Of a stretch of 64,000 nt of DNA, positions 40,857-55,163 are shown in pieces. Position numbers and translations under genes: made by a program. Source of the DNA: Anaerolineae bacterium (GTDB taxonomy: Bacteria > Chloroflexota > Anaerolineae > B4-G1 > SLSP01); assembly GCA_034432595.1 (NCBI GenBank), contig DAOUBT010000033.1:2353-66352 (forward strand), in the 5' to 3' direction. Below the pieces are notes generated by a model. The model ran no database searches and was not told where the DNA came from. It saw only the letters and a list, made by a program, of their open reading frames with translations. The number at the start of each line of letters is the position of its first letter. The first letter of the stretch is position 1.

Positions 40857-41621
40857 ATGCGTCTGAAGGATAAGGTTGCGCTCATTACCGGCGGTGCCGC
40901 GGGTATTGGTAAGGCCACGGCTCTGGTGTTCGCGCGCGAGGGCGCGAAGGTGGTCATTTGCGATGTGAACGAGGAAGCCGGGCGGGAGCTGGTCGCTCAG
41001 CTTGGTCCGGATGCCGCCTTCTACAAGGTCAACGTCACGGACCGGCAGGAGGTGCAGGCCTGGGTGGATGATGTGATTGCGCGTTACGGGCGCGTGGATG
41101 TGCTGGTCAATAATGCCGGCATCACGCGCGATGGCCTGTTCGTCAAGATGAAGGATGGTGAGCTGGTCAAGCAGATGGAGGAAGCGGCCTTCGATAGCGT
41201 GGTGGCGGTTAACTTGAAGGGGGTCTTCAATTGCGCGCAGGCGGTGACGCCTTACATGATTCGGCAGGGCGGCGGGGTCATCATCAACGTGTCCTCGGTG
41301 GTGGCGCTGTACGGGAACTTCGGTCAGACCAACTATGTGGCCACCAAGGCGGGCGTGATTGGGATGACGAAGGTGTGGGCGCGCGAGCTGGGCCGCTACG
41401 GGATTCGCGTCAACGCCGTGGCGCCGGGCTTCATCGCTACCGAGATGGTGCAGAAGATGCCCGAAAAGGTGCTGGAGGATATGAAGGCGCACACGCCGCT
41501 GGGTCGTCTGGGGCAGCCGGAGGACATCGCCAACGCTTTCCTCTGGCTGGCCAGTGATGAGGCTTCTTTCGTCCATGGGGCCACCATCAGCGTGGATGGT
41601 GGGATTGTCATCGGTTCGTAG
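40857..41621 (+). CDS. fabG: 3-oxoacyl-ACP/acetoacetyl-CoA reductase (classical SDR)
   Basis: Motifs TGGAAGIG, NNAGITRD, NFGQTNYVATKAG and VAPGFI. Confidence 0.85.
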   Translation: MRLKDKVALITGGAAGIGKATALVFAREGAKVVICDVNEEAGRELVAQLGPDAAFYKVNVTDRQEVQAWVDDVIARYGRVDVLVNNAGITRDGLFVKMKDGELVKQMEEAAFDSVVAVNLKGVFNCAQAVTPYMIRQGGGVIINVSSVVALYGNFGQTNYVATKAGVIGMTKVWARELGRYGIRVNAVAPGFIATEMVQKMPEKVLEDMKAHTPLGRLGQPEDIANAFLWLASDEASFVHGATISVDGGIVIGS

Positions 41622-41630
41622 GAGGGAAAG

Positions 41631-42635
41631 ATGAGCCGCTACGCTAAGATTATCGCCACCGGGCGTTATGTCCCGGAAATCGAAATGACCAATGCCCATT
41701 TTGCCGAGCTGATGGGCAAGGTCAATCCGAAGCTTGCAGAAGTGGTGGGCAAGTTTGAGGAGAGCAGCAACATCAAAACGCGCTGGTACGCTCCCGATGA
41801 CTGGGTCACGTCTGACCTGGCGGTGCGCGCGGCGCAGGATGCGCTGGAAGAGGCCGGGATGAAGCCGGAAGACCTCGACCTTATCATTCTGGGCACGGAT
41901 AGCCCGGATTACATCACGCCGGCAACCTCGGTGGTGGTGCAGCACAAACTGGGCGCGAAGCGCGCCGGGACGTTTGATGTGGGCTGCGCCTGCGCTTCTT
42001 TCCCCACCGGTCTGAACATTGCCGCGGGCCTGCTGGCTTCTAACCCCCACATGAAGTATGTCATGGTCATCGGCGCGTACATGATGCACAAGCTTTCCGA
42101 TTGGCAGCATGACGTGATGGCCTTCTTCTACGGTGACGGCGCGGGGGCGGCTATCCTCACCGCCGACGAGAAACCCGGTTTCGTCAGCTCGACCTTCTTT
42201 GCGGATGGCTCCTATCACAAGTATTGGGGGATTTATTCCGGCGGCACGTATGAACCGGCAACGGTGGAGAGTGTGCAGGCCGGACGGACGCAGGTGCGCT
42301 TCATCACGCCCTTCCCGCCGGAGGTGAATAACGCCGGCTGGCCGCAGCGCGTGCGCGAGCTGGCGGCGAACGGCGGTTTCGCCCTGGAGGATATTGACCT
42401 GATTATCTTCACGCAGGTGCGGTACAACAGCATTGAAATCGTGATGAACGATCTTGGGCTGCCCATGACGAAGGCGCACTGGATCATGGATAAGTGGGGC
42501 TACACCGGTTCCGCCTGCCTGCCCATGGCTTTTGATGATGCGCGCGAGCAGGGCAAGGTCAAGCCGGGTGATCTGGTGCTCTTCATCGGTTCTGGCGTGG
42601 GCTACAATCAGGCCGGCGCAGCTTTCATCATGTAG
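41631..42635 (+). CDS. KAS III (FabH-like) protein with a non-canonical active site
   Basis: FDVGCACASF (Cys121) and GDGAGA. FTQVR replaces HQAN and GYTGSA replaces GNTSAA. Confidence 0.85.
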   Translation: MSRYAKIIATGRYVPEIEMTNAHFAELMGKVNPKLAEVVGKFEESSNIKTRWYAPDDWVTSDLAVRAAQDALEEAGMKPEDLDLIILGTDSPDYITPATSVVVQHKLGAKRAGTFDVGCACASFPTGLNIAAGLLASNPHMKYVMVIGAYMMHKLSDWQHDVMAFFYGDGAGAAILTADEKPGFVSSTFFADGSYHKYWGIYSGGTYEPATVESVQAGRTQVRFITPFPPEVNNAGWPQRVRELAANGGFALEDIDLIIFTQVRYNSIEIVMNDLGLPMTKAHWIMDKWGYTGSACLPMAFDDAREQGKVKPGDLVLFIGSGVGYNQAGAAFIM

Positions 42636-42737
42636 CATGGGGCAAGGGGATAAGAGTCCGCTCGTCCTGATTCGTCACGGCGGGCGATGGGACGGGCGGC
42701 GCTTGGTCCCGCATGCGAGGCAAGGGGCGGTGAAACG

Positions 42738-44036
42738 ATGAACGTCAAATCCATGTATGCCGAAAAGTTGATTTCCATCCCCGAAGCGGTGGGGATGGTG
42801 CAATCGCATCAACGCATTGCTGCGGCGATGTGCGCCTCGGAGCCGGTGGGGTTGCTTTCCGAGCTGGAGAAGCACGCTGACCGGTTAGAGGATGTGCATG
42901 TCTTCATGTGCCTGCCGATGCGCGAGTACGGCTTCTACACGAAGCCGGAGATGAAGGGGCATTTCTTCCTGGAAAACTGGTTCTACGGCGTGGCCGATCG
43001 CAAAGCGCATTCGCTGGGGATGGTATCCTACATTCCCAACAATTTGCACCGCGCGGGCACGGATCGCATCCACGCGGGCGGGGTGAATATCTTCTGGGGG
43101 ACGGCGACCCCGCCCAACAGCCGCGGCATCATGTCGCTTTCGACCTCGCTGGTGTTCGAGCGGCAATTGCTCGATGCTGCTGACCTCGTCATCCTGGAAA
43201 TCAATCCAAATCTGCCCTGGACCCTGGGGGATACGCAAATCAGCGTGCGGGATGTGGATTACGTGGTGGAGTGCGAGACGCCGCTGGTTGAGTTGCAACC
43301 CATTGCACCGACCGACGTGGAAGCAACCATTGGACAGTACATTGCCGACCTCATCGAGGACGGCAGCACCATTCAGCTTGGCATCGGCGGTATCCCCAAC
43401 GCCATCGCGCAGAGCCTGTACGGCAAGCATGACCTGGGCGTGCATACCGAAATGTTCACCGATGGCATGGTGGATTTGTTCGAGGCGGGCGTCATCACCG
43501 GGCGCAAGAAGACGCTGTGGCCGAACAAAATGGTGGGTGCTTTTGCCCTGGGCACGCGCAAGCTCTACGACTTCATCCATAACAACGTGGCGGTGGAATT
43601 CCAGCAGGGCAAAGTGACGAACAATCCCTACATCATGGGGCAAAACGCAAAGATGGTGAGCATCAACACCGCGCTACAGGTGGATGTGTTGGGGCAGGTG
43701 TGCTCGCAAAGCATCGGCTCGATGCACTTCAGCGGCACGGGAGGGCAACTCGATACGCATCGCGGCGCGCAGATGTCCGCCGGTGGCCGCGGCATCATCG
43801 CCTTGCGCTCAACCGCGCGCAACGGCACGGTCTCCACGATTGTGCCGCAGCTCACGCCCGGCGCCGAGGTCACCGTGCCGAGTCAGGACGTGGATACGGT
43901 TGTCACCGAGTTTGGCGTGGCGGAGCTGCGTGGGCGCTGCCTCAAGGACCGCGTGGCGGCGCTCATCAACATTGCGCATCCCGATTTCAGGCCCTGGCTG
44001 TGGGAAGAAGTAAAGCGGCTGGGGATTATCGCTTAA
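42738..44036 (+). CDS. Acetyl-CoA hydrolase/4-hydroxybutyrate CoA-transferase family
   Basis: Motifs TIQLGIGGIPNA, LGVHTEMF, SGTGGQLD and DTVVTEFGVA. Confidence 0.9.
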   Translation: MNVKSMYAEKLISIPEAVGMVQSHQRIAAAMCASEPVGLLSELEKHADRLEDVHVFMCLPMREYGFYTKPEMKGHFFLENWFYGVADRKAHSLGMVSYIPNNLHRAGTDRIHAGGVNIFWGTATPPNSRGIMSLSTSLVFERQLLDAADLVILEINPNLPWTLGDTQISVRDVDYVVECETPLVELQPIAPTDVEATIGQYIADLIEDGSTIQLGIGGIPNAIAQSLYGKHDLGVHTEMFTDGMVDLFEAGVITGRKKTLWPNKMVGAFALGTRKLYDFIHNNVAVEFQQGKVTNNPYIMGQNAKMVSINTALQVDVLGQVCSQSIGSMHFSGTGGQLDTHRGAQMSAGGRGIIALRSTARNGTVSTIVPQLTPGAEVTVPSQDVDTVVTEFGVAELRGRCLKDRVAALINIAHPDFRPWLWEEVKRLGIIA

Positions 44037-44059
44037 GTCTTTACGTTCAGGAGGTGGAT

Positions 44060-44371
44060 ATGTCCGAGCTTCTGGGAAAATGGGAACAGCCGGAGGGGCA
44101 ACCCTATCCGGGTTTGTGGTTTGAATTCCGCCCGGATGGGACGTTCCGCGCCGAATTGCCTTCCATGGGGATTACGTCCGGCGGGACCTATCGCGCCGCG
44201 CAGGGCGAGATTGACATCGAGCAGACTGAACACACCTTTGGCATTGTCGGCACGTTCCTGGGGCGCTATCAGGTCGAGGGCGATACGCTCGTGATGACTC
44301 TGGGGGACCCCGGCGCGCCGCGTCCGGAGTTGGAGCATCGCAACAAGCGCCTTTACAAAAAAGTGAGGTAG
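44060..44371 (+). CDS. Small hypothetical beta-barrel-like protein (103 aa)
   Basis: Strong RBS GGAGGTG; LLGKW..FEFRPDGTF..GTY..G.Y.VEGDTL pattern typical of lipocalin-like barrels. Confidence 0.7.
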   Translation: MSELLGKWEQPEGQPYPGLWFEFRPDGTFRAELPSMGITSGGTYRAAQGEIDIEQTEHTFGIVGTFLGRYQVEGDTLVMTLGDPGAPRPELEHRNKRLYKKVR

Positions 44372-44374: not shown

Positions 44375-45544
44375 GTGTTGAGGCTGTTCCGGCGTGCTCA
44401 ACCGACCCCCAAATCGCTTGCGCCGTTGCGCATCGGCGTGGTGGCGGCGCGCAGCGGGATGTGGGCCGTCTATGGGGAAGCGGCTGTGCGCGGCCTTGAG
44501 CTGGGTCTGGATTATGCCACCGCCGGCACGTACAGCGTGGCCGGGCGCGCCTTGCGCCTCCTCATCGAGGATGATGGTGGCAAAGAGCAGAAAGCGCAGG
44601 AGCTGGCAACGCGCCTGTTGAAGGATGAGGGCTGCGAGCTGCTGGTGGGATGCACCATCAGTCAGACGAGTTTGCAGTTGGTGCGCGTGGCGCAGTCCCT
44701 GGAGCGCCTGGTGCTCATCAGTGTGGCGGCGACGGACGTGCTCACGGCGGAGTGGTTCACGCCCTACATGTTCCGCACCGCCGCCACAACCGCTCAGGAT
44801 GCAGCCGCGGGCGGGCGTTATGCGGCGCAGCACCTGGGTCGGCGGGTGGCCTTCATTTCGCCCGATTCGCTGTGGGGGCAGCAGAGCCGCGCGGCGTGGT
44901 GGAAAGTGCTCGCGCAACAGGGCGCCGACATTGTCGGAGATGTGCTTGTCCCCCCACAAACCACGGATTTCCGTCCCTTTTTGCACGACATCCTGTCCCA
45001 ACGCCCGGATGTGCTCATCGCCTTTTGGGCGGGCAGCCTGACGCGCTATCTGCTGACGCAGATGCGCGAGGTGGGCCTCTTTGAAGCGATGCACGTCGCC
45101 GGAAATCTGGTGGATCGAGAGACGCTGCACGCGGTCGGCCTGGCTCCGGCAGGGATGGTGTGCGCGGCGAAATACCGCTACTCGTTCCCGCAGAACCCCA
45201 TCAATAGCTGGTTGGTGCTGCGTCATCAGGAACGGTACGGCGAACCGCCCGACCTGTTCAGCGAAAGTGGTTTCACGGCGGGTGTGGCACTGGTCGAGGC
45301 GCTCAAGCGCAGCAATGGCGACGCGCGCGCCGACGTGCTGATTCCGGTGCTCGAAGGGCTGACCTTCGAGGGTCCCAAAGGTCAGTACACCTTGCGCGCA
45401 CAGGATCATCAGGCGCTGCAGCCCATGTACGTGGCGGAGTTGCGGCCTGCACTGGAGGGCACTGTGTGCGAACCCTACCTGCTGACCGAAATCAGCGCGG
45501 AACAGGCCGCTCCGCCGGTGGCGGTGGAATCTCGTCATTCATAG
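44375..45544 (+). CDS. Liv/AmiC-class substrate-binding-fold protein lacking a signal peptide
   Basis: Similar to 49255..50622 (PPDLF, LEGLxFEGPKG, DH..QP). No hydrophobic leader, and an in-frame stop lies just upstream. Confidence 0.8.
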   Translation: MLRLFRRAQPTPKSLAPLRIGVVAARSGMWAVYGEAAVRGLELGLDYATAGTYSVAGRALRLLIEDDGGKEQKAQELATRLLKDEGCELLVGCTISQTSLQLVRVAQSLERLVLISVAATDVLTAEWFTPYMFRTAATTAQDAAAGGRYAAQHLGRRVAFISPDSLWGQQSRAAWWKVLAQQGADIVGDVLVPPQTTDFRPFLHDILSQRPDVLIAFWAGSLTRYLLTQMREVGLFEAMHVAGNLVDRETLHAVGLAPAGMVCAAKYRYSFPQNPINSWLVLRHQERYGEPPDLFSESGFTAGVALVEALKRSNGDARADVLIPVLEGLTFEGPKGQYTLRAQDHQALQPMYVAELRPALEGTVCEPYLLTEISAEQAAPPVAVESRHS

Positions 45545-45558: not shown

Positions 45559-46605
45559 ATGGAAAAGCCTCAACCTTTACCCGGTGTGACCACGGCGCTG
45601 GTGAGTACGCCGCGCCTGACGCAGCACGTTTACTTCACCGGCCCGGATGATGGCATTCCCGTGATTTTCCTGCACGGCAATTTTTCCGCGGCGCTCTATT
45701 GGGAAGAGACAATGCTGGCGCTGCCCGCAGGCTTTCGCGGTATCGCTCCCGATTTGCGCGGCTACGGTTGGACGGAGGATAAACTGATTGACGCCACGCG
45801 CGGGCTGCGCGACTGGAGCGATGATGTGCTGGCTCTGATGGACGTGCTGGGCCTGGAACGCGCGCACGTGGTGGGGTGGTCCATGGGGGGCGGCATCGTC
45901 TATCAGCTCCTCACGGATGCGCCGCAGCGGTTTTTGAGCGCTGTGCTCATTGCGCCGGTTTCGCCTTACGGCTTCGGCGGGACTAAGGACGTGGCCGGGA
46001 CGCCCTGTTACGAGGATTTCGCCGGGTCCGGGGGCGGGGTGGTCAATCCGGTTTTCGTGCAGCGCATTCAGATGCAGGATCGCGGCACGGATGACCCCAA
46101 CTCGCCGCGGAACGTCATCAACGCCTTCTACTACAAGCCGCCTTTCCGCGCCGCCCGCGAGGAGGATTTCCTCACCGCCTCTTTAGCGGAAAAGACTGGC
46201 CCTCAGCAATATCCGGGCGACTCCGTGCCCTCGCCGAACTGGCCCCATGTGGCGCCGGGGGTGTGGGGACCGGTCAATGCCTGGTCGCCCAGGTACGTGG
46301 CGGCGGACGTGGCGCGCTTCATCGCTGCCGAACCCAAGGTGCCCATCCTGTGGATTCGCGGCGATAGTGACATGATTGTGAGCGATATGTCCATGTTCGA
46401 TTTTGGCGCTTTGGGCAAACTGGGGTTTGTGCCCGGCTGGCCTGGGGATGAGGTCTATCCGCCGCAGCCGATGATCGCGCAGACGCGCGCCGTGCTGGAG
46501 CAATATGGGCCTTTTGAGGAGCGCGTCCTGGCCGACTGCGCCCACAGTCCGCACATCGAGAAGCCCGAAGCGTTCAACGCGCTTTTCCATGCTTTTTTGA
46601 AGTAG
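45559..46605 (+). CDS. Alpha/beta hydrolase, PhaZ-like (GWSMG lipase box)
   Basis: Motifs FLHGN, DLRGYG, VGWSMGG and CAHSPH. Confidence 0.8.
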   Translation: MEKPQPLPGVTTALVSTPRLTQHVYFTGPDDGIPVIFLHGNFSAALYWEETMLALPAGFRGIAPDLRGYGWTEDKLIDATRGLRDWSDDVLALMDVLGLERAHVVGWSMGGGIVYQLLTDAPQRFLSAVLIAPVSPYGFGGTKDVAGTPCYEDFAGSGGGVVNPVFVQRIQMQDRGTDDPNSPRNVINAFYYKPPFRAAREEDFLTASLAEKTGPQQYPGDSVPSPNWPHVAPGVWGPVNAWSPRYVAADVARFIAAEPKVPILWIRGDSDMIVSDMSMFDFGALGKLGFVPGWPGDEVYPPQPMIAQTRAVLEQYGPFEERVLADCAHSPHIEKPEAFNALFHAFLK

Positions 46606-47409: not shown

Positions 47410-47490
47410 GAAAACGGCCACGCGCAGGCCGTTGTGGCTAAACAAGCGGCAAGTAGGTACAACTAAACTTTTTACTTGAAGGAGGACACG

Positions 47491-48749: not shown

Positions 48750-49178
48750 ATGAACACGGCACCTTTTACGGCGACGAGTTTTTACACGTTTTTGCAGGAG
48801 CATAAACTCATGGCCGCGCGCTGCACGCGCTGTGGTGCGCTTTACCTGCCGCCGCGCCCCCTGTGCCCGCATTGTGTGGATGCGCCCATGGAGTGGGTGG
48901 AACTCTCCGGCAAGGGCGAGGTGGTGGCTTACAGCGTCATCGCCATTGGGTTAACCATGATGCTGGAAGCGGGCTATAGCCGCGAGAATCCCTACGTCTC
49001 GGCTATGGTGCGCTTAGCCGAAGGACCGGTCATCAGCGCGCAGCTTGTTGGGGTGGACGTGCAGCACCCCGAAAGCATCAAGATCGGAATGCCGGTGCGC
49101 ATGACATTTGTCGAGCGCGGTCCGCAGGAGGCGCGCAAGGTGTATCTGGCGTTTGAGCCTTGGGAAGGAGGTGAGTAG
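48750..49178 (+). CDS. DUF35 Zn-ribbon/OB-fold protein
   Basis: CTRC..PRPLCPHC, then LSGKGEVVAYS and IGMPV. Confidence 0.92.
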   Translation: MNTAPFTATSFYTFLQEHKLMAARCTRCGALYLPPRPLCPHCVDAPMEWVELSGKGEVVAYSVIAIGLTMMLEAGYSRENPYVSAMVRLAEGPVISAQLVGVDVQHPESIKIGMPVRMTFVERGPQEARKVYLAFEPWEGGE

Positions 49179-49254: not shown

Positions 49255-50622
49255 ATGAAACAGTTGTCACGTTTGTTCCTTTTGGTGATGGTGGCCGCGC
49301 TGGTCTTGAGCGGCTGCGTCCAGAAAGCGACGCCCACCGCAACCCCGACCCCCACAGAGGCTCCGACGGAGAAGCCGACGGAGCCGCCGACCGAGCAGCC
49401 GACGGCGGAACCGACTCAGGAGACGTATGGCCCCGTTCTCAAAATCGGCATGATCTCGATGCAGTCGGGGGTGATGGCCCTCTACGGTCAGCAGCAGTAT
49501 CGCGGCTTCATGTTGGGCCTGGAATACATGTCCGGCGGCAAGACGGACGATCAGGGACGCTACATCATTGCCGGGCGTCCGGTGGAAGTGCTGCTGCGCG
49601 ACGATGAAGGCAATCCCGAAAAGGGCGTGGCCCTGGCGCGGGAGCTGATTGAAAAGGACGGCGTCGAGCTGCTGCAGGGGCCGGTTAGCTCCGCGGTGGC
49701 GGTGGCGCTGACCACGGTGGCGCAGGAAAACAAGATCATCCTCATGATTGACCCGGCGGCTTCGGCGTTCCCGACCGGCCCGAACTTCAATCCTTACGTC
49801 TTCCGCACCAGCCGCACCAACTACGATGATGTGCTGGTCATTGCCAAGTATCTGGTGGAAAACGTGGGCAAGAAGTTCGCGCATATCGGCATTGACAACG
49901 CCTTTGGGCGTGGTAGTGGCGCTGCTCTGGCTTACGCCGTGGGCAAGTACGGTGGTGAGGTGGTCGCCGACATCTACGCGCCTTTCGACACCACCGATTT
50001 CACCCCCTACATTCAGCAGGCGATGGATTCCGGCGCTGACTGCCTGTTCCTGACCTGGGCGGGCACGGGCTACGTCACTCTCTTCCAGCAGCTCGGCGAC
50101 CTGGGCGCGTTGGAGAAGATGCGCGTGGCGACGGGGTACGGCGATAACGCCTCCTTCGCTGCAGTTTACGGCACGGCGCTGGGGCAGATTGGTCTCAACG
50201 TCTATCACTACACCGTCCCCAAGAACCCCATCAACGATTGGCTGACGCAGCGCCACCTGGAGCTGTACAAGGAGCCGCCGGATCTCTTCACCGCGGGCGG
50301 TATGGCTTCGGCGATTGCCCTGGCTACGGCGCTGGAGAAGACGGGTGGCGACACGAACGCCGACAAGATGATTGCCGCGCTCGAAGGCCTCAAGTTTGAG
50401 GGTCCCAAGGGCACTTACTACATCCGCCCGGAGGATCACGTCTGCGAGCAGCCGATGAACATCCTCAAGCTGGTGAACCTCGATCCTGACCTGGATGACG
50501 ACGGCATTCCGGAGTACAAGTTCTTTGAGACCGTGTACGTGAGCGAGTACAACGAGTTGGGCGTGCCCTGCACTCTGACCGGCGAGTACGCTGCACGCTG
50601 CGGCAACCTGCCCAAGCCGTAA
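49255..50622 (+). CDS. Liv-class ABC transporter substrate-binding lipoprotein
   Basis: Lipobox LSGC, Pro/Thr/Glu linker, and Liv SBP fold. Confidence 0.9.
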   Translation: MKQLSRLFLLVMVAALVLSGCVQKATPTATPTPTEAPTEKPTEPPTEQPTAEPTQETYGPVLKIGMISMQSGVMALYGQQQYRGFMLGLEYMSGGKTDDQGRYIIAGRPVEVLLRDDEGNPEKGVALARELIEKDGVELLQGPVSSAVAVALTTVAQENKIILMIDPAASAFPTGPNFNPYVFRTSRTNYDDVLVIAKYLVENVGKKFAHIGIDNAFGRGSGAALAYAVGKYGGEVVADIYAPFDTTDFTPYIQQAMDSGADCLFLTWAGTGYVTLFQQLGDLGALEKMRVATGYGDNASFAAVYGTALGQIGLNVYHYTVPKNPINDWLTQRHLELYKEPPDLFTAGGMASAIALATALEKTGGDTNADKMIAALEGLKFEGPKGTYYIRPEDHVCEQPMNILKLVNLDPDLDDDGIPEYKFFETVYVSEYNELGVPCTLTGEYAARCGNLPKP

Positions 50623-50635
50623 GGGCAAGACACGG

Positions 50636-50665
50636 GGGAGACAGGCCCACGCAGGCCTGTCTCCC
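50636..50665 (+). terminator. Stable hairpin after the SBP gene (terminator or mRNA stabiliser)
   Basis: GGGAGACAGGCC-CACGCA-GGCCTGTCTCCC; weak U tract. Confidence 0.6.
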
Positions 50666-51029
50666 TTCATCCACGGATGCCTCAACGCGAATTTTCAGGC
50701 CTTGACGGGTTAACATGGATGGCTTTACGCAAGCAGTGGAAACCCGTCCAACCTGAGTTAATCCGCGTCCTGAACATCCAGGGCTGAACGTATACGGTAA
50801 GAGAAACAGGACCGGTTCGGTCCGCTTTTACTTGTGATAAAGCATCAACGCAGGCAGGACCTGGGCTTTTTAACCGTCAGGGATGGGTACGTGGACAGCC
50901 TGGAGGGGTAGCCCGGCTGTGGCTGGACCGCTGCGCTTTCTACTTTCCGGGCGTTTTTCCTGTGCAAGCTCAATTCCGGCGATGCATGGGCGCAAAGAAG
51001 CCGTTACGATTTTTGCTTTCGGAGAAGCT

Positions 51030-51821
51030 ATGACGACAGAGACAAAGCCCGACATTATTTTAGAAGGCCGCCATCTGACCAAGGTTTTTGGGGGGCTGGT
51101 GGCCGTGGATCAGGTGAGTTGTCAAATCCGTGCCGGTACCCTCCATGCTATTATCGGTCCCAATGGCGCGGGTAAGACGACGCTGTTTAATCTGTTGAGC
51201 CGAACGTTTCCGCCCACGTCGGGGCAGGTGTTTTTCCGTGGGCGCGATATTACCCACCTCCCCACGCATCGCGTGGCGCATCTGGGATTGGGACGCTCGT
51301 TTCAGATTACCAATATCTTCCCCAATTTGACCGTGCTGGAGAATATTCGCCTTGCTGCGCAGGCGCGGGGTGGGGATAACTTCAAGTTCTGGCGGCCTTA
51401 TACGCATTTTCAGACCTACATCGAAAAAGCCCTTGCTATTGCGGCGCTGGTTGGCCTGCAGGGACGCGAAGGGGCCTTAGCGCGCAATCTGGCGCACGGC
51501 GAGAAGCGCAAATTAGAGCTGGGCATCATGCTGGCGAGCGATCCCGAAGTCCTGCTGCTGGACGAGCCGACCGCTGGCATGTCTTCGGAGCAGGTCCCGG
51601 AGCTGATTGAGGTCATCCGCGCCATTATGGCGCAGGGGGGGAAGACCGTCGTGCTCGTTGAACACCGCATGGACGTGGTGATGAACGTCTCCGATGTCAT
51701 CACGGTGATGCATCAGGGGCGCGTGCTGGCCGAAGGTACGCCACAGGAGGTGGCGCGCAATGAGCTGGTGCAGAAGGCCTATTTGGGCGCGCTGTACGGC
51801 GACTTTGGCGCTTCGGCATAG
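51030..51821 (+). CDS. Liv-class ABC ATPase (LivG-like)
   Basis: Motifs GPNGAGKTT, SFQITNIF and LLDEPTAG. Confidence 0.9.
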   Translation: MTTETKPDIILEGRHLTKVFGGLVAVDQVSCQIRAGTLHAIIGPNGAGKTTLFNLLSRTFPPTSGQVFFRGRDITHLPTHRVAHLGLGRSFQITNIFPNLTVLENIRLAAQARGGDNFKFWRPYTHFQTYIEKALAIAALVGLQGREGALARNLAHGEKRKLELGIMLASDPEVLLLDEPTAGMSSEQVPELIEVIRAIMAQGGKTVVLVEHRMDVVMNVSDVITVMHQGRVLAEGTPQEVARNELVQKAYLGALYGDFGASA

Positions 51822-51830: not shown

Positions 51831-52577
51831 ATGGCACAACCGGATTCCAATGACATCATCCTGTCCGTGGAGGGCATTCACACCTACATCGGACAGTTTC
51901 ACATTCTGGAGGGGATTTCGCTTCAGGTGCGGCGAGGCAGTATCACGGTTTTGCTGGGACGCAATGGCGCGGGCAAGACCACCACGCTCAAATCCATTTT
52001 GGGCCTCACCCCGCCGCGTTCAGGGCGCGTGCTACTGGATGGAGCTGAGATTCAGGGCAAACACGCTTATGACATCGCGGCCATGGGTATCGGGTATGTT
52101 CCGGAGCACCGCGCCATTTTCCGCAATCTGAGCGTGGGCGAGAACCTGCGCATTGCCGAGCGCAAAAAGGGCGACCTGGAGCGCAAAGCCGATTTCATCT
52201 TTCGCCTGTTCCCCGACCTCAAGCGTCTCTACAAATTGAGCGGCTATCAACTTTCGGGTGGGCAGCAGCAGATGCTGGCTATTGCCCGCGCCATGGTGGC
52301 GGATAACAAACTGCTCTTGATTGACGAGCCTAGCGAGGGCCTGGCGCCGGTCATCATTGAGCAGATGATGGACGCGATCCGCGAGCTGAGTGCTACTACT
52401 ACCGTGCTTCTGGTGGAACAAAATTTTCTCATGGCCAGCCGTTTAGGCCAGGATTACTACATCATTGACGACGGCAAAACCGTGCATCAAGGGCGCATGG
52501 AGGACCTGGTGCATGATGAGGCCCTCATCCACCAATATCTGGGCGCAAGCGTCCGCCGGGCAGGAGGTGCAGCATGA
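51831..52577 (+). CDS. Liv-class ABC ATPase (LivF-like)
   Basis: Motifs GRNGAGKTT, LSGGQQQMLAIARA and IDEPSEGLAP. Confidence 0.9.
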   Translation: MAQPDSNDIILSVEGIHTYIGQFHILEGISLQVRRGSITVLLGRNGAGKTTTLKSILGLTPPRSGRVLLDGAEIQGKHAYDIAAMGIGYVPEHRAIFRNLSVGENLRIAERKKGDLERKADFIFRLFPDLKRLYKLSGYQLSGGQQQMLAIARAMVADNKLLLIDEPSEGLAPVIIEQMMDAIRELSATTTVLLVEQNFLMASRLGQDYYIIDDGKTVHQGRMEDLVHDEALIHQYLGASVRRAGGAA

Positions 52578-54067
52578 GAAAATCGTCCGTATGGCGGGAG
52601 TATCAGGCGTTGTGGATAGGGTTGGGCCTGGTCCTTGTGCTGATTGGCCTGGCCTGGCGCGTCATCGGCACGCAGGCTTTCATCCGCACCACGCTTTCGG
52701 GCCTGACGCTGAGTGCGCTTTTCTTCATGGTGGCAGCGGGTCTGACCCTGGTGTTTGGCCTGATGGATGTCCTGAACTTCGCGCAGGGTTCCATGTTTAT
52801 GGTGGGCGCTTACATAGGCTGGCAGTTTTACACCAACCCCACCTTCCTTTTTGGCCTGGCGCCGCTGGCGCTGGTGTTCATCGCGGGTTTGACGGGCATG
52901 GCGCTTTTCTATCCCGTGGTGCACACGCTGCGCCTCACGCCGGAGCAGCAAAAAGGGCTGCGTGCGGCCCTCATCACCCTGGCCTTGGCCCTGGTAGTGG
53001 CGGGGCTGTGGGGCTACGACGTGCGTGACCTGGCCAAAACGGCGATGGTCTCTTCCATGGTGGCCTCCAATCTCCTGGCTGAAGCTTCGCCGCAGGAACC
53101 TCTGGCGCGCTTCTGGCTGCGTCCCCTGTTGGTTTTTCTGGGCGGATTGGCGTTCGCCGTGGCGCAGGCCCGTCCTGGGGATGAGACACACGTGGTGTCG
53201 CGCAGCGCGACACGACGCAGCGCCCTCATCTTGCCCGGCCTGCTGCTGCTCACGGCGCTGAGCGTGCTCGTGCGCGAATCCGGGCCGATTGCCGTGCTGC
53301 TGTTGAACGGGAACGTGCGCTTTGTCCTGGCGCTGCTCACGAGTTTGTTGGTCGGGTTTGGACTGGGGGTGCTCATCGAAAATCTTTTCATCAGCCCCCT
53401 TTACACCCGTCCCCTGTATCAGATTATCATCACCATGGGCCTGGCGTATGTCATCGGCGAGCTGGTGCAGTTGCTCTGGGATCCGCTCCCTTACGCCATG
53501 GACCGTCCGCCGCTGTTCGCGCAGCCGGGCAAGGCCGCCAACGTGGCCGAGTGGCTGCAGAAGGGTAGCTCGACGCTGGATATTTTCGGCGTGACCTTCC
53601 CCACCTATCGCCTGTTCATTATTGTCCTGGGCGTGCTGATGTTCCTGGCCCTCACGGCGGTGATGAAGTACACGCGCCTGGGCATGATTATCCGCGCGGG
53701 CGTGCAGGATCGCGAGATGGTGGAGGCGCTGGGCATCAACGTCAAGCGCGTTTTCACCTTTGTGTTCGCTTTGGGGACTGCGCTGGCCGCGTTGGGTGGC
53801 ATCGGTGCGGCGCCGTTTATGCCGGTGGAGCCGGTGATGGGTGACCGTTTCCTCATGCAGGGCTTCATCACGGTGGTCATCGGCGGCATGGGCAGCACGA
53901 GCGGCGCGGCCATTGGTGCCCTGCTGTTGGGCCTGGCGCGCGCCTTTGGTGACTATCTCGCGCTCAAATACGGCCTCACCCCCTCCATTTCCGAGGCTTC
54001 GACCGTGGTGATCATGGCAATTGTGTTGCTGGCGCGCCCAACCGGGCTGCTGGGCAAGAAGGAGTAG
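52574..54067 (+). CDS. Liv-class permease (LivH-like) with a large internal insertion
   Basis: Motifs GLTLVFGLMDVLNFAQG, TRLGMIIRA and VVIGGMGS; 497 aa. Confidence 0.88.
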   Translation: MRKSSVWREYQALWIGLGLVLVLIGLAWRVIGTQAFIRTTLSGLTLSALFFMVAAGLTLVFGLMDVLNFAQGSMFMVGAYIGWQFYTNPTFLFGLAPLALVFIAGLTGMALFYPVVHTLRLTPEQQKGLRAALITLALALVVAGLWGYDVRDLAKTAMVSSMVASNLLAEASPQEPLARFWLRPLLVFLGGLAFAVAQARPGDETHVVSRSATRRSALILPGLLLLTALSVLVRESGPIAVLLLNGNVRFVLALLTSLLVGFGLGVLIENLFISPLYTRPLYQIIITMGLAYVIGELVQLLWDPLPYAMDRPPLFAQPGKAANVAEWLQKGSSTLDIFGVTFPTYRLFIIVLGVLMFLALTAVMKYTRLGMIIRAGVQDREMVEALGINVKRVFTFVFALGTALAALGGIGAAPFMPVEPVMGDRFLMQGFITVVIGGMGSTSGAAIGALLLGLARAFGDYLALKYGLTPSISEASTVVIMAIVLLARPTGLLGKKE

Positions 54068-54071
54068 GCGT

Positions 54072-55163
54072 ATGCGGACCTCATTCAAGCATGTGTGGGA
54101 AAAGCTCTCAACCTGGGCCGGGCAGCAAAAGGTGCCGCTGCTGGTGCTGGCCGGTTTCATTCTCTTCCCCTACCTGTTTGCTCTGTTTACCGGTACCCCA
54201 CCGGCGGAAGGGGCCAACAAGTTCTGGCAGGGGCATTTCATCTCCATGTTTATCCTGGCTGTTTATGCCATGAGCTATGATTTGCTGCTGGGCTACACGG
54301 GGATTTTGACCTTCGGTCATGCGGCGTTCTTCGGCAGCGGGGCCTACGCCATGGCGTTATTCCTCAAGCACGTGGCGCCGCAGTTCAGCGCGAATTACCA
54401 GATTGTGCTGGGACCGTGGAACATCACGGACGGGATGTTGCTGTTGGTGGGCTTTTTGCTGGCGATGCTGGTGGCCTCTTTGATAGGGGTGCTCTTCAGC
54501 GTGGTGTCGGCGCGCGTGCACGGCGCTTATTTCGCCATGATTACCCTGGCCATGGCGCAGGCCTTGCACATCCTTTCCAAGAGTGCGGATTTTGTGAAGT
54601 GGACCGGCGCGGATGAGGGTCTGCACGGGGTGCCCGTGCCCGCTTTCCTCAATCCCACGCAATATCGTTTGCGCTTCTACTTTGTCGCTTTGGCCTTTGC
54701 GCTGGTGATGTACGTCATCACGCAGCGATTGGTCAACTCGCCCACGGGGCGCGTCTTTGTGGCGCTGCGCGAAAACGAAAGCCGCGTGCTGATGATTGGC
54801 TACAATCCGCGCACCTATCGCCGCATCGCTTTCACCGCCGCGGCGCTCCTTGCTGGCATGGCGGGCGCGCTCTACGCGGTGTGGACGATGAGCGCCACGC
54901 CCACCATGACCGGCATGGGCATGACGGTGAACGCGCTCATTATGACCATTCTCGGTGGCATTGGCACGCTCTACGGGCCGATGTTGGGCGCTGCTCTGAT
55001 GGAATTCCTGGGGCACTACTTCTATCAGTGGTTTGGCGCGCGCTGGCCTCTGGTGTTTGGTGTGCTCTTTATCCTGCTGGTGCTCTTCCTGCCCTACGGC
55101 ATCGTGGGCACGTGGCGTCTGCGCATGGCGGAATGGAAGCTTAAACGTAAGGCGAGGATGTGA
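54072..55163 (+). CDS. Liv-class permease (LivM-like)
   Basis: Motifs LLGYTGILTFGHAAFFG, SPTGRVFVALRENE and ILGGIGT. Confidence 0.9.
   Translation: MRTSFKHVWEKLSTWAGQQKVPLLVLAGFILFPYLFALFTGTPPAEGANKFWQGHFISMFILAVYAMSYDLLLGYTGILTFGHAAFFGSGAYAMALFLKHVAPQFSANYQIVLGPWNITDGMLLLVGFLLAMLVASLIGVLFSVVSARVHGAYFAMITLAMAQALHILSKSADFVKWTGADEGLHGVPVPAFLNPTQYRLRFYFVALAFALVMYVITQRLVNSPTGRVFVALRENESRVLMIGYNPRTYRRIAFTAAALLAGMAGALYAVWTMSATPTMTGMGMTVNALIMTILGGIGTLYGPMLGAALMEFLGHYFYQWFGARWPLVFGVLFILLVLFLPYGIVGTWRLRMAEWKLKRKARM

What the first reader, a model, noticed from the sequence alone, without database searches (positions are those of the whole stretch)
40857..55163. 15-gene import-and-activate cluster for an unknown hydroxyacyl ester (PHB-oligomer-like) substrate
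Seen: co-oriented, mostly tightly spaced SDR, atypical KAS III, CoA transferase, small barrel protein, signal-less SBP, two hydrolases, thiolase+DUF35, SBP and four Liv-type ABC genes. A third esterase is divergent and a MalT/SARP regulator is convergent. No PHA synthase or acyl carrier protein is present. Known: each family acts on short acyl-CoAs or esters. Inference: uptake of 3-/4-hydroxybutyrate oligomers or lactones, then hydrolysis, CoA transfer, oxidation and thiolysis; alternatively, synthesis of a small acyl signal. This is the best candidate for an undescribed metabolic system in the window.
Basis: partly seen in the sequence, partly recalled or inferred. Interest (0 to 1): 0.7.

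Follow-up and report, generated by a model that had tools for sequence, protein, structure and literature searches.

The report
Conserved ester-acid uptake and breakdown operon
This is a real 14-gene operon, conserved from Chloroflexota to an archaeon, that most likely imports a small ester, hydrolyses it, attaches CoA and splits it into acetyl-CoA units. One of its core genes is a previously undescribed FabH-like enzyme type, and neither that enzyme's reaction nor the substrate is known.

Summary

The cluster is not a chance adjacency.
- In 80 Chloroflexota species genomes, SDR–KAS III-like–CoA-transferase is essentially invariant.
- Thiolase+DUF35, the 265-aa hydrolase and a Liv-type ABC importer follow in about 90% of loci long enough to show them.
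- The same module is rebuilt in other gene orders in Caldisericia, Bipolaricaulota, an unclassified bacterium and the archaeon Thermofilum adornatum.
- In some of these, AMP-forming ligases replace the CoA-transferase, and a classical thiolase or no thiolase replaces thiolase/DUF35.

The divergent esterase is not part of the cluster. The BTAD/MalT regulator is part of it.

The KAS III-like protein defines a deep subfamily. It has Asp90-Cys121-Thr261-Tyr291-Cys296 in place of FabH's Cys-His-Asn, so it cannot carry out decarboxylative condensation.

Best reading: inducible catabolism. A small carboxylate ester is imported and hydrolysed in the cytoplasm. The acid is activated with CoA, oxidised by an NAD-dependent (R)-3-hydroxyacyl-CoA dehydrogenase and cleaved thiolytically. 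The KAS III-like enzyme probably performs a pathway-specific C–C or acyl-transfer step.

The PHB-oligomer substrate is plausible but untested. I found no characterised pathway that matches. Moderately novel.

The parts
40857..41621 (+). Classical SDR, predicted NAD(H)-dependent (R)-3-hydroxyacyl-CoA dehydrogenase / acetoacetyl-CoA reductase type
   Evidence: Pfam adh_short_C2 1e-71. NCBIfam FabG/AcAc-CoA reductase models. Best PDB 4nbw 1e-97 and 4nbu. TGxxxGxG, NNAG and YxxxK are present, with Asp36 at the end of beta2 (sequence). Present in 77/78 loci, median 78% identity. 56% in Caldisericia, 60% in L088, 45% in Thermofilum.
41631..42635 (+). KAS III-fold protein of a new 'Asp-Cys-Thr-Tyr-Cys' subfamily; reaction unknown
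   Evidence: Pfam ACP_syn_III + ACP_syn_III_C. FabH fold, TM 0.83-0.87. Cys121 is kept, His->Thr261, Asn->Tyr291, plus invariant Asp90 and Cys296. Median 74% identity over 80 species. Found in at least 564 species genomes.
42687..44036 (+). Family-I CoA-transferase of the 4-hydroxybutyrate / butyryl-CoA:acetate type (start probably 42738)
   Evidence: Pfam AcetylCoA_hydro + AcetylCoA_hyd_C. PDB 9vag 5e-104 and 3gk7 3.5e-94. The catalytic Glu of AbfT (HSEM) aligns with HTEM, and the GGQLD motif is kept. Present in 53/54 loci. Replaced by AMP-ligases in L087, L089 and L090.
44060..44371 (+). 103-aa cytoplasmic 8-stranded beta-barrel (calycin/lipocalin-like), probable small-ligand binder
   Evidence: No Pfam or PDB sequence hit. 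31 homologues in the 5.8-billion-protein search; in the Chloroflexota loci the gene sits in this operon. AlphaFold pLDDT 95. Only weak Foldseek matches to lipocalin-like and FABP barrels, E>=0.01, TM 0.55-0.64. Present in 37/54 loci.
44375..45544 (+). Peripla_BP_6 paralogue without signal peptide (cytoplasmic binder or sensor); accessory
   Evidence: Pfam 4.9e-67. It starts 4 nt after the preceding stop and has no hydrophobic N-terminus. True orthologues occur only in L010 and L042.
45559..46605 (+). Cytoplasmic alpha/beta hydrolase, 348 aa (esterase or C-C hydrolase type); facultative member
   Evidence: Pfam Abhydrolase_1. GWSMG nucleophile elbow. Weak hits to intracellular scl-PHA depolymerase (89 bits, cut-off 300) and to MCP hydrolases. 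Present in 24/54 loci, and 65% identical in the paralogous cluster L087.
46612..47409 (+). Cytoplasmic alpha/beta hydrolase, 265 aa (esterase/lactonase, PcaD-like); core member
   Evidence: NCBIfam PcaD 163 bits, below the cut-off of 256. PDB esterases 6eb3 and 5egn, and PcaD 2xua. GISYG elbow, no signal peptide. Present in 48/54 loci. Orthologues at 36% in Caldisericia and 35% in Thermofilum.
47476..48747 (+). SCP2-type (archaeal-type) thiolase, catalytically intact (start probably 47491)
   Evidence: Pfam Thiolase_N + Thiolase_C_1. Best PDB 6esq, archaeal acetoacetyl-CoA thiolase, 1.8e-86. CxS (CAS), HDxF (HDCF) and GHP motifs are present (sequence; criteria from PMC12960953). Present in 49/54 loci.
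48750..49178 (+). DUF35 zinc-ribbon/OB protein, partner of the thiolase
   Evidence: Pfam zf-ChsH2 + OB_ChsH2_C. PDB 6ok1_B, 6esq_E and PhlB. Present in 49/54 loci, always directly after the thiolase.
49255..50622 (+). Extracytoplasmic lipoprotein SBP of a HAAT (Liv-type) ABC importer
   Evidence: Pfam Peripla_BP_6 7e-69. Lipobox LSGC. Nearest solved structures are 3nnd/3n0x 6e-60, then 4ey3, 4f06 and 4evs; LivJ scores only 8e-9. Present in 51/54 loci, in two sequence types. A hairpin at 50634-50665 follows the stop codon.
50883..51821 (+). ABC ATPase (LivG-like); real start probably ATG 51031
   Evidence: Pfam ABC_tran + BCA_ABC_TP_C. Sequence read. Present in 51/54 loci.
51831..52577 (+). 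ABC ATPase (LivF-like)
   Evidence: Pfam ABC_tran. Present in 51/54 loci.
52574..54067 (+). ABC permease with N-terminal extension (BPD_transp_2)
   Evidence: Pfam. Syntenic in the loci that extend far enough.
54021..55163 (+). ABC permease (BPD_transp_2); start probably ATG 54072
   Evidence: Pfam. Syntenic.
55252..55282 (.). Bidirectional terminator hairpin closing the operon and the convergent regulator gene
   Evidence: 14-bp stem with 11 GC pairs.
55314..58538 (-). STAND-type BTAD/MalT-like transcriptional activator, probable substrate-responsive regulator of the operon
   Evidence: Pfam BTAD 2.6e-26 and TPR_MalT. An orthologue lies directly upstream and co-oriented in 30/54 Chloroflexota loci, and also in L087 and L091.

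Best explanation
This is an inducible catabolic operon for a small imported carboxylate that carries an ester or lactone bond and a beta-hydroxy (or beta-oxo) acyl unit.

**Proposed steps**
1. The lipoprotein SBP and the Liv-type ABC transporter import the compound. The BTAD/MalT-like activator senses it. Both roles are inferred from the protein families.
2. One or two cytoplasmic Ser-Asp-His hydrolases open the ester or lactone (inferred).
3. The free acid is converted to its CoA thioester by a 4-hydroxybutyrate-type CoA-transferase, with acetyl-CoA as the likely donor. This functional slot is shown by its non-orthologous replacement with AMP-forming ligases in other lineages.
4. The NAD-type SDR oxidises the (R)-3-hydroxyacyl-CoA to the 3-oxoacyl-CoA (inferred from its closest relatives and its cofactor motif).
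5. C–C cleavage yields acetyl-CoA units. The SCP2-type thiolase/DUF35 pair has all its thiolase motifs and most resembles acetoacetyl-CoA thiolase.

**The KAS III-fold protein**
- It is always next to the SDR or to the CoA-activating enzyme.
- It has lost the decarboxylation residues but keeps the nucleophilic Cys, an invariant Asp at the position I recall for the HMG-CoA-synthase base, and a second Cys.
- My preferred role is a thiolase-like, non-decarboxylative retro-Claisen (or acyl-transfer) step on the pathway-specific intermediate. Its product is handed to the ordinary thiolase.
- This would explain why clusters lacking a thiolase still keep the KAS III-fold protein.

**Substrate**
3-hydroxyalkanoate oligomers (PHB/PHV fragments) are the leading single candidate but are unproven.
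For: **Synteny**
- The module is conserved in 80 Chloroflexota species.
- It is reassembled in different gene orders in Caldisericia, an Anaerolineales paralogous cluster, a Gram-negative contig, Thermofilum adornatum, an unclassified bacterium and Bipolaricaulota.
- Orthology is supported by tblastn.
- Every fully sampled version has an uptake system and a ligand-type regulator (BTAD, TetR, MarR or HTH_10).

**Individual steps**
- CoA-transferase and AMP-ligase substitute for each other. This marks a carboxylate-activation step.
- No acyl-CoA dehydrogenase is conserved, and a hydratase (MaoC) occurs in only 20/80 loci. The acid should therefore already be oxidised at C3.
- SDR: the closest solved relatives are 4nbw/4nbu-type reductases, and Asp36 indicates NAD(H). 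In Thermofilum it is fused to a DUF35-like OB segment next to the thiolase. This matches the published KT/DUF35/SDR complex.
- Thiolase: CxS, HDxF and GHP are intact (criteria).
- CoA-transferase: the catalytic Glu is conserved.
- Hydrolases: no signal peptides, intact nucleophile elbows.

**KAS III-fold protein**
- The signature is conserved down to 34% identity and across domains.
- It is among the most conserved proteins of the operon, at 74% median identity against 47% for DUF35.
- It occurs with a classical thiolase or with none.
Against: - No experiment or curated family assigns any step. All specific NCBIfam hits are below their cut-offs.
- A linear 3-hydroxyacid pathway does not need the KAS III-fold enzyme, so its role is a guess.
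- NAD(H) dependence and thiolase/DUF35 complexes are equally compatible with the reductive (condensing) direction.
- The two transporter types among otherwise orthologous operons, and the 24%-identical SBP in Caldisericia, show that the imported ligand may differ between lineages.
- No extracellular PHB depolymerase is conserved nearby.
- The nearest liganded SBP structures bind aromatic acids (from memory), not hydroxyalkanoates.
Confidence: 0.5

Rival explanations
1. Same catabolic scheme with the specific substrate the first reader proposed: (R)-3-hydroxybutyrate/valerate oligomers released from PHA. The KAS III-fold enzyme would cleave the oxo-ester of a CoA-activated (and possibly oxidised) dimer thiolytically. 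That would conserve the ester bond as a second thioester instead of hydrolysing it.
For: - The SDR is of the (R)-specific acetoacetyl-CoA reductase/'NADH-FabG' type.
- The thiolase is most like acetoacetyl-CoA thiolase.
- The best specific hit of the 348-aa hydrolase is intracellular scl-PHA depolymerase.
- A MaoC/PhaJ-like gene occurs in 20/80 loci.
- One genome has prpBCD next to the operon, as expected if 3-hydroxyvalerate yields propionyl-CoA.
- The module occurs in anaerobic heterotrophs of several phyla, where saving one CoA activation per dimer would pay.
Against: - The PHA-depolymerase hit is 89 bits against a cut-off of 300 and covers only the N-terminal third.
- No secreted PHB depolymerase is conserved with the operon.
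- The SBP relatives with known ligands bind aromatic acids.
- The thiolytic ester-cleavage role is pure inference.
Confidence: 0.2
2. Catabolism of a cyclic or aromatic-derived beta-dicarbonyl compound, such as a triacetate/phloroglucinol-type, enol-lactone or phenylpropanoid ester. A hydrolase would open a ring or lactone, and two successive thiolytic enzymes (the KAS III-fold protein, then the acetoacetyl-CoA thiolase) would dismantle a 3,5-dioxoacyl-CoA.
For: - Two thiolase-superfamily enzymes sit in one operon.
- The 265-aa hydrolase is nearest to 3-oxoadipate enol-lactonase, and the 348-aa one shows weak similarity to C–C (meta-cleavage product) hydrolases.
- The SBP is nearest to R. palustris benzoate-derivative binders (ligand identity from memory).
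- Extract enzymology of Pelobacter/Eubacterium proposed hydrolase, dehydrogenase, CoA-transferase and thiolases for phloroglucinol (cited).
Against: - The characterised phloroglucinol cluster uses dihydrophloroglucinol cyclohydrolase and a BKACE-type lyase, and no Pfam family of those types was found in the cluster.
- There is only one SDR, and it is NAD-type and FabG-like rather than phloroglucinol-reductase-like.
- No ring-reducing or ring-activating enzyme is conserved.
- The adjacent BD-FAE esterase is not conserved.
Confidence: 0.12
3. A biosynthetic, ACP-independent condensing module, either archaeal-FAS-like or OleABCD/beta-lactone-like. An imported or activated acid would be condensed by the KAS III-fold enzyme and/or thiolase/DUF35, reduced by the SDR with NADH and finished by the alpha/beta hydrolases. 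The product would be a small lipid, signal or storage compound.
For: - The family composition (non-decarboxylating thiolase-fold enzyme + SDR + AMP-ligase + alpha/beta hydrolase) parallels OleA-D (own knowledge).
- Thiolase/DUF35 + (R)-specific SDR + MaoC is the published archaeal fatty-acid synthase complex, in which DUF35 favours condensation.
- An invariant Asp next to the Cys suggests carbanion chemistry.
Against: - An SBP-dependent importer (or TonB receptor + symporter) and substrate-type regulators accompany every version, with no exporter.
- No enoyl reductase is conserved.
- The SDR is NAD-type, whereas the archaeal FAS reductase is strictly NADPH-dependent.
- OleA's His/Asn are absent.
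- A CoA-transferase that consumes acetyl-CoA fits activation of a substrate better than release of a product.
Confidence: 0.12
4. The KAS III-fold protein is a catalytically dead scaffold of a thiolase/DUF35 complex, like PhlA/MucA or the inactive HMGS domain of the P. fluorescens complex. All the chemistry would be done by the thiolase.
For: - It has lost His and Asn.
- The gene order thiolase–DUF35–KAS III in Bipolaricaulota copies the ACAT/HMGS/DUF35 operon logic.
- 1,001 orphan bacterial HMGS/ACAT/DUF35 loci have been described, and one tested example has an inactive HMGS domain and an active thiolase.
Against: - It keeps the nucleophilic Cys and an invariant Asp in every lineage.
- It evolves more slowly than the thiolase and far more slowly than DUF35.
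- It occurs with a classical thiolase lacking DUF35 or with no thiolase in the cluster.
- It is FabH-like, not HMGS/PhlA-like, by sequence and fold.
Confidence: 0.06

Closest known systems
FabH / KAS III (beta-ketoacyl-ACP synthase III)
   Same: - Same fold (Foldseek TM 0.83-0.87, 28-30% identity).
- Same position of the nucleophilic Cys and the same GDGAGA loop.
   Different: - His244 and Asn274, which drive malonyl decarboxylation, are Thr and Tyr.
- The ACP-docking Arg249 is Asn.
- Asp90 and Cys296 are added as invariant residues.
- The subfamily also occurs in an archaeal genus. From my own knowledge, Archaea generally lack ACP.
Archaeal ketothiolase/DUF35/ketoacyl-CoA reductase/MaoC fatty-acid synthase complex (Sulfolobus acidocaldarius; bioRxiv 10.1101/2024.07.05.601840) and the thiolase/HMGS/DUF35 complex (6esq)
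   Same: - SCP2-type thiolase + DUF35 + (R)-type SDR, plus MaoC in 20/80 loci.
- The thiolase is most similar to the 6esq thiolase.
- A DUF35-like/SDR fusion in Thermofilum implies the same docking logic.
   Different: - The SDR here is NAD-type, not strictly NADPH-dependent.
- There is no enoyl reductase.
- The module is embedded with an importer, hydrolases and a CoA-activating enzyme, which points to the degradative direction.
- The extra thiolase-fold partner is FabH-like, not HMGS.
Bacterial HMGS/ACAT/DUF35 complexes: PhlACB, MucABC (SmaATase) and orphan loci (PMC12960953)
   Same: - Co-occurrence of a thiolase, a DUF35 protein and a second thiolase-fold protein that has lost canonical catalytic residues.
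- The thiolase keeps HDxF, like the thiolytically active P. fluorescens example.
   Different: - The second protein keeps its Cys and is not of the HMGS/PhlA clade.
- It is not tied to DUF35.
- There is no polyketide or NRPS context.
Bbs-type / peroxisomal-type beta-oxidation modules (CoA-transferase, SDR, SCP2-thiolase+DUF35; e.g. benzylsuccinate BbsA-H)
   Same: The same enzyme families carry out activation, 3-hydroxyacyl-CoA oxidation and thiolysis. BbsB, BbsA and BbsD are all recovered as homologues.
   Different: - No acyl-CoA dehydrogenase or obligatory hydratase.
- The CoA-transferase is family I, not family III.
- Hydrolases, a KAS III-fold enzyme and an ABC importer are added.
OleABCD / beta-lactone synthase clusters
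   Same: Same four protein superfamilies: a non-decarboxylating thiolase-fold enzyme, a dehydrogenase, an AMP-ligase (in L087, L089, L090) and an alpha/beta hydrolase. This comparison rests on my own knowledge.
   Different: - The OleA catalytic His/Asn are absent, and OleA matches only residues 48-148 at about 1e-17.
- An importer, a CoA-transferase and a thiolase are present.
- The cluster lies in a catabolic regulatory context.

Membership tests
FabH / KAS III condensing enzyme | Cys-His-Asn catalytic triad | tested here: not met
   Cys121 is present, but His244 is Thr261 and Asn274 is Tyr291. The same holds in 17 cluster representatives down to 34% identity.
FabH / KAS III condensing enzyme | Thiolase-fold dimer architecture with ACP_syn_III N- and C-domains | tested here: met
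   Pfam PF08545 + PF08541. AlphaFold model pTM 0.83. The top 50 Foldseek hits include FabH, PqsD, BioZ and a priming ketosynthase.
FabH / KAS III condensing enzyme | Use of malonyl-ACP (ACP docking Arg249) | tested here: not met
   Arg249 aligns with Asn266. Orthologues occur in Thermofilum. From my own knowledge, Archaea generally lack ACP.
HMG-CoA synthase | Glu-Cys-His-Asn tetrad (as defined in PMC12960953) | tested here: not met
   The residues are Asp90-Cys121-Thr261-Tyr291. The equivalence of Asp90 with the HMGS Glu (GTES vs GTDS motif) rests on memory. HMGS NCBIfam models score 64 bits against a cut-off of 244.
OleA | Cys-His-Asn plus trans-acting Glu | tested here: not met
   His and Asn are absent. 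OleA structures match only residues 48-148 at about 4e-17.
SCP2-type thiolase with DUF35 partner | CxS, HDxF and GHx motifs; adjacent zinc-ribbon/OB DUF35 gene | tested here: met
   CAS, HDCF and GHP are in the translation. Thiolase_C_1 1e-46. 6esq 1.8e-86. DUF35 lies immediately downstream.
SCP2-type thiolase with DUF35 partner | Physical complex and thiolytic activity | not testable with these tools
   Requires co-purification and an enzyme assay.
Family-I CoA-transferase (4-hydroxybutyrate / butyryl-CoA:acetate type) | Both AcetylCoA_hydro domains and the catalytic Glu | tested here: met
   Pfam. Glu in HTEM aligns with residue 238 (HSEM) of 3gk7, which I recall as the catalytic Glu of AbfT. 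GGQLD is kept.
Family-I CoA-transferase (4-hydroxybutyrate / butyryl-CoA:acetate type) | Equivalog-level identity with butyryl-CoA:acetate CoA-transferase | tested here: not met
   TIGR03948 scores 270 bits against a cut-off of 675.
NAD(H)-dependent classical SDR acting on 3-oxo/3-hydroxyacyl thioesters | TGxxxGxG, NNAG, S-YxxxK; acidic residue after beta2 | tested here: met
   All motifs and Asp36 are in the sequence. 4nbw 1e-97. FabG model NF004198 scores 296.5 bits against a cut-off of 296. Substrate and stereospecificity were not testable.
HAAT (Liv-type) ABC importer | Peripla_BP_6 SBP with export signal, two BPD_transp_2 permeases, two ATPases (one with BCA_ABC_TP_C) | tested here: met
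HAAT (Liv-type) ABC importer | Branched-chain amino-acid ligand | tested here: inconclusive
   The LivJ model NF011933 scored 46 bits against a cut-off of 477, but that test was on the signal-less paralogue. The exported SBP matches E. coli LivJ (1z15) at only 8e-9, against 6e-60 and about 1e-31 for R. palustris SBPs. Ligand binding itself was not testable.
PHA depolymerase / 3HB-oligomer hydrolase | Score above the curated family cut-off | tested here: not met
   NF050089 scores 89 bits (348-aa hydrolase) and 66 bits (265-aa hydrolase) against a cut-off of 300.
3-oxoadipate enol-lactonase PcaD | Score above the curated cut-off | tested here: not met
   TIGR02427 scores 163 bits against a cut-off of 255.85.
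Anaerobic phloroglucinol gene cluster (PGR, DPGC, TfD, TAL) | Dihydrophloroglucinol cyclohydrolase and BKACE-type triacetate lyase | tested here: not met
   The cluster's genes map to other Pfam families, and none is a cyclohydrolase or beta-keto-acid-cleavage type. The cluster definition comes from PMC10470551.

The most novel reading that the evidence does not exclude
**Enzyme.** The Asp-Cys-Thr-Tyr-Cys KAS III-fold protein is a new enzyme class of the thiolase superfamily. It would perform a CoA-dependent, non-decarboxylative cleavage, of either a C–C bond or an oxo-ester bond, that conserves bond energy as a thioester.

**Pathway.** With its SDR, hydrolases, CoA-activating enzyme and importer it would form a previously unrecognised catabolic pathway. 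That pathway would have spread horizontally across domains and would let energy-limited anaerobes feed on a common necromass-derived ester such as oligo-hydroxyalkanoates. The anaerobes concerned include Anaerolineae, Caldisericia, Bipolaricaulota and Thermofilum.
Probability: 0.25. Interest if true: 0.8.

Novelty: new variant of a known kind. Interest (0 to 1): 0.6.

Why it matters
**Ecology.** From my own knowledge, Anaerolineae are among the most abundant yet physiologically obscure heterotrophs in anaerobic digesters, sediments and hot-spring mats. An operon kept in hundreds of their species should mark a substrate that matters in those habitats. It is shared with Caldisericia, Bipolaricaulota and an archaeon.

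**Consequences of identifying the substrate.**
- It would assign function to a whole set of genes now annotated 'ketoacyl-ACP synthase III', 'FabG' and 'branched-chain amino acid ABC transporter'.
- It would correct metabolic reconstructions that count those genes as lipid synthesis or amino-acid uptake.

**Enzymology.** The KAS III-fold protein would add a new reaction type to the thiolase superfamily. It may be useful as an ACP-independent C–C or ester-to-thioester catalyst.

Tried and rejected
- **RNA elements.** An Rfam scan of the whole window found no riboswitch or other RNA family that could name a ligand.
- **Literature.** Searches for the gene combination in Anaerolinea, Anaerolineae or Thermofilum found nothing. 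A DUF35/thiolase/CoA-transferase search returned only steroid and unrelated papers. The PHB/Anaerolineaceae search was uninformative.
- **The 103-aa protein.** It has no Pfam or PDB sequence match. Foldseek gives only weak calycin-like matches, so nothing beyond 'small ligand-binding barrel' can be said.
- **Gene fusions.** A search among longer relatives found only frameshifted or chimeric sequences (P0121, P0133, P0153), not informative domain fusions.
- **Flanking genes.** Mining of 80 loci found a single extra recurrent gene, MaoC-like in 20 loci. Other recurrent 'ORFs' were antisense shadows of SDR/KAS III/CoA-transferase.
- **Rejected readings.**
  - Ordinary fatty-acid initiation by FabH+FabG: the triad is lost, there is no ACP, and an archaeal orthologue exists.
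  - A mevalonate-pathway HMGS/thiolase/DUF35: the tetrad is absent and the protein is FabH-like.
  - A PhlACB-type Friedel-Crafts acylase: the thiolase keeps HDxF, and there is no PKS.
  - A fortuitous neighbouring Liv amino-acid transporter: the ABC genes are syntenic in five lineages.
  - The divergent BD-FAE esterase as a member: 0/80 loci.
- **Not possible.** I could not inspect model coordinates, so the spatial proximity of Asp90, Tyr291 and Cys296 to Cys121 is inferred from FabH homology only.

Full report
**1. What is in the window**

Fourteen co-oriented, tightly spaced genes occupy 40857-55163:
- a classical SDR
- a KAS III-like protein
- a 4-hydroxybutyrate-type family-I CoA-transferase
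- a 103-aa protein with no family
- a Peripla_BP_6 protein with no signal peptide
- two cytoplasmic alpha/beta hydrolases (348 and 265 aa)
- an SCP2-type thiolase with its DUF35 partner
- a lipoprotein SBP (lipobox LSGC)
- two ABC ATPases and two BPD_transp_2 permeases

Several mechanical ORF starts are too early. The likely starts are CoA-transferase 42738, thiolase 47491, ATPase 51031 (read) and second permease 54072.

A hairpin follows the SBP stop codon at 50634-50665. A 14-bp-stem hairpin at 55252-55282 closes the operon against the convergent BTAD/MalT-like regulator gene, 55314-58538.

The neighbours are functionally unrelated. They are a multi-GAF histidine kinase, a xanthine-dehydrogenase-family protein with an adenine deaminase, a LuxR-Kelch protein and TilS. 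Rfam finds no RNA element in the window.

**2. The cluster is real and conserved**

The KAS III-like protein has very close relatives, all above 73% identity among the 120 best hits. A scan of one genome per GTDB species found at least 564 loci. The 80 best are all Chloroflexota, mostly Anaerolineae, and include loci assigned to Bellilinea caldifistulae GOMI-1 (an isolate) and Anaerolinea thermophila (a MAG).

tblastn of the 16 window proteins against these loci gave the following.

| Gene | Loci with the gene / loci long enough to show it |
|---|---|
| SDR | 77/78 |
| CoA-transferase | 53/54 |
| Thiolase | 49/54 |
| DUF35 | 49/54 |
| 265-aa hydrolase | 48/54 |
| SBP and both ATPases | 51/54 each |
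| 103-aa protein | 37/54 |
| 348-aa hydrolase | 24/54 |
| BTAD regulator (normally directly upstream, co-oriented) | 30/54 |
| Divergent esterase | 0/80 |
| Signal-less SBP | 2/80 |

De novo clustering of all flanking ORFs found one further recurrent gene, a 142-aa MaoC-like hydratase after DUF35 in 20 loci. There was no conserved gene outside these borders.

Median identities are SDR 78%, KAS III-like 74%, thiolase 71%, CoA-transferase 68%, DUF35 47% and regulator 40%.

SBP identity is bimodal: 20 loci at 38-44% and 31 at 66-87%. Two transporter types therefore serve otherwise orthologous operons.

**3. The KAS III-like protein is a distinct subfamily**

- Alignment with E. coli FabH shows Cys112 conserved as Cys121, His244 replaced by Thr261 and Asn274 by Tyr291.
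- An exhaustive HMMER search of 1.84 billion cluster representatives gave 360 hits below 1e-30.
- Seventeen of the top-ranking full-length representatives, down to 34% identity, carry Asp90-Cys121-Thr261-Tyr291-Cys296. Below them the hits switch to ordinary x-Cys-His-Asn-Ser FabH proteins.
- Asp90 and Cys121 are invariant in ten sequences from seven lineages.
- The fold is FabH-like: AlphaFold pTM 0.83, Foldseek TM 0.83-0.87.
- FabH's ACP-docking Arg249 is Asn.
- Loss of His and Asn excludes malonyl decarboxylation. This follows from established FabH mechanism, which is my own knowledge.
- The retained Cys plus an acidic residue at the position I recall for the HMG-CoA-synthase base suggests carbanion or acyl-enzyme chemistry. 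That is inference.

**4. The module recurs across phyla and domains**

Source names place members of the subfamily in Caldisericia, Saprospiraceae, Bipolaricaulota, Spirochaetia and the archaeal genera Thermofilum and Infirmifilum. Their contexts are as follows.

| Lineage (locus, call) | Gene content, in order |
|---|---|
| Caldisericia (L085) | two hydrolases – KAS III – SDR – SBP – four ABC genes – TetR – CoA-transferase – classical thiolase without DUF35 |
| Anaerolineales paralogous cluster (L087) | BTAD – small protein – KAS III – AMP-ligase – hydrolase – SDR – AMP-ligase – hydrolase – SBP – ABC |
| Gram-negative contig (L088) | MarR – TonB receptor – SDR – KAS III – SSF symporter – hydrolase |
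| Thermofilum adornatum (L089) | thiolase – SDR, then AMP-ligase – two hydrolases – ABC – KAS III – SBP |
| Unclassified bacterium (L091) | SDR – small protein – SBP – ABC – hydrolase – two tandem KAS III – CoA-transferase – BTAD – hydrolase |
| Bipolaricaulota (L092) | TetR – thiolase – DUF35 – KAS III – SDR – hydrolase – two SDRs – crotonase – hydrolase – SBP – ABC |
| Saprospiraceae (L083) | only the pair CoA-transferase–KAS III |
| Spirochaetia (L090) | only the pair AMP-ligase–KAS III |

tblastn supports orthology.
- Caldisericia: SDR 56%, KAS III 45%, CoA-transferase 54%, 265-aa hydrolase 36%.
- Thermofilum: thiolase 39%, SDR 45%, hydrolase 35%, SBP 35%, KAS III 40%.

The recurring core is therefore KAS III-fold protein + SDR + alpha/beta hydrolase(s) + an uptake system. 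A CoA-activation slot is filled by either a transferase or a ligase. The thiolase is optional and interchangeable.

The Thermofilum SDR carries an N-terminal OB-like segment and directly follows the thiolase gene. This echoes the published DUF35-mediated docking of ketoacyl-CoA reductase on ketothiolase.

**5. Evidence on individual steps**

- **SDR.** The best solved relatives are 4nbw (1e-97) and 4nbu/4nbv. From memory these are the NADH-using FabG/acetoacetyl-CoA reductases of Javidpour et al. 2014. Asp36 after beta2 indicates NAD(H) (established SDR rule).
- **Thiolase.** The best match is the archaeal acetoacetyl-CoA thiolase 6esq at 1.8e-86. CxS, HDxF and GHP are intact. PMC12960953 uses these motifs to separate thiolytically active ACATs from Friedel-Crafts acylases.
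- **CoA-transferase.** It aligns end to end with C. aminobutyricum AbfT, and the Glu at AbfT residue 238 is conserved.
- **Hydrolases.** Both have intact nucleophile elbows and no signal peptides. Specific models are all below their cut-offs: PHA depolymerase 89/300 bits, PcaD 163/256 bits.
- **SBP.** The nearest structures are 3nnd/3n0x (6e-60), then 4ey3/4f06/4evs/4evq, with LivJ at only 8e-9. From memory, the second group are the benzoate-derivative binders of Michalska et al. 2012.
- **103-aa protein.** It is a confident 8-stranded barrel with only weak calycin-like structural matches. The 5.8-billion-protein search returned just 31 homologues.

**6. Interpretation**

Three features argue for catabolism of an imported compound:
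- an importer and a ligand-type regulator accompany every fully sampled version;
- the hydrolases are cytoplasmic;
- a carboxylate-activation slot is filled by non-orthologous enzymes.

No acyl-CoA dehydrogenase is conserved and a hydratase is usually absent. The acid should therefore already carry oxygen at C3, which makes the NAD-SDR-then-thiolysis sequence sufficient.

The KAS III-fold enzyme is not needed for a simple 3-hydroxyacid, yet it is the most faithfully kept partner of the SDR and of the CoA-activating enzyme. It persists where no thiolase is present. I therefore favour a thiolase-like retro-Claisen, or a CoA-dependent acyl-transfer, on the pathway-specific intermediate. The scaffold model drawn from PhlA/MucA is disfavoured by its slow evolution, its retained Cys/Asp and its independence from DUF35.

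The substrate remains open.
- Oligo-3-hydroxyalkanoates fit the SDR, thiolase, MaoC and hydrolase affinities. They also fit one prpBCD neighbourhood.
- Lactone, beta-dicarbonyl or aromatic-ester substrates, and a biosynthetic reading, cannot be excluded.

**7. Comparison with known systems**

The cluster fails a defining test for each of the following.
- FabH, HMGS and OleA: catalytic residues.
- The characterised phloroglucinol cluster: no cyclohydrolase and no BKACE-type lyase.
- The archaeal FAS complex: no enoyl reductase, and an NAD-type SDR.
- PhlACB-type acylases: the thiolase keeps HDxF.

It works most like a Bbs/peroxisomal-type (R)-specific beta-oxidation module. To that module it adds an importer, esterases and a new thiolase-superfamily enzyme. 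Nine literature searches found no description of it.

**8. Verdict**

- Novelty: a new variant of a known kind. This is a CoA-dependent catabolic operon containing an uncharacterised, cross-domain KAS III-fold subfamily.
- Interest: 0.6.

Noticed in passing
window 34994-39106 (+): A 1370-aa sensor histidine kinase with five to six tandem GAF domains lies just upstream of the cluster. It is not conserved next to the operon in other genomes.
   Followed up: partly
window 30072-32906 and 32968-34716 (+): A single-polypeptide xanthine-dehydrogenase-family protein (2Fe-2S + hammerhead + MoCo domains) is followed by an adenine deaminase. This looks like a purine catabolism or salvage pair.
   Followed up: no
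window 58586-60196 (-): A protein combines a LuxR/GerE HTH with a five-blade Kelch propeller, an unusual regulator architecture.
   Followed up: no
window 50634-50665 and 50622-51031: A GC-rich hairpin follows the SBP stop codon, and about 400 nt of non-coding sequence precede the likely ATPase start (ATG 51031). This fits differential expression of the SBP relative to the membrane components.
   Followed up: partly
L089:1282-2256 (Thermofilum adornatum): The SDR orthologue has an N-terminal extension of about 75 aa that resembles the OB part of DUF35, and it directly follows the thiolase gene. This may be a natural DUF35-SDR fusion.
   Followed up: partly
L003-L082 (SBP/permease genes): SBP identity to the window is bimodal (20 loci at 38-44%, 31 at 66-87%), and permease identity tends to be low in the same loci. 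Two different Liv-type transporters have been swapped into otherwise orthologous operons.
   Followed up: partly
L091:10001-12026: Two tandem KAS III-fold paralogues. The second is 26% identical to the window protein. It keeps Asp and Cys but has lost Thr, Tyr and the second Cys, which suggests a heterodimer like PqsBC or LstAB.
   Followed up: partly
L001/L020:3906-7459: Methylcitrate-cycle genes (prpB, prpC, prpD) lie immediately upstream of the operon in one Chloroflexota genome. This would suit a propionyl-CoA-yielding substrate.
   Followed up: no
window 44375-45544 (+); L010, L042: A signal-less SBP paralogue is inserted in the operon in only three genomes. By analogy with AmiC it could be a cytoplasmic ligand sensor.
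   Followed up: partly
window 39789-40790 (-): The divergent BD-FAE/Abhydrolase_3 esterase has a weak Tat-signal-like N-terminus. It is probably a secreted esterase specific to this genome and is absent from all 80 related loci.
   Followed up: partly
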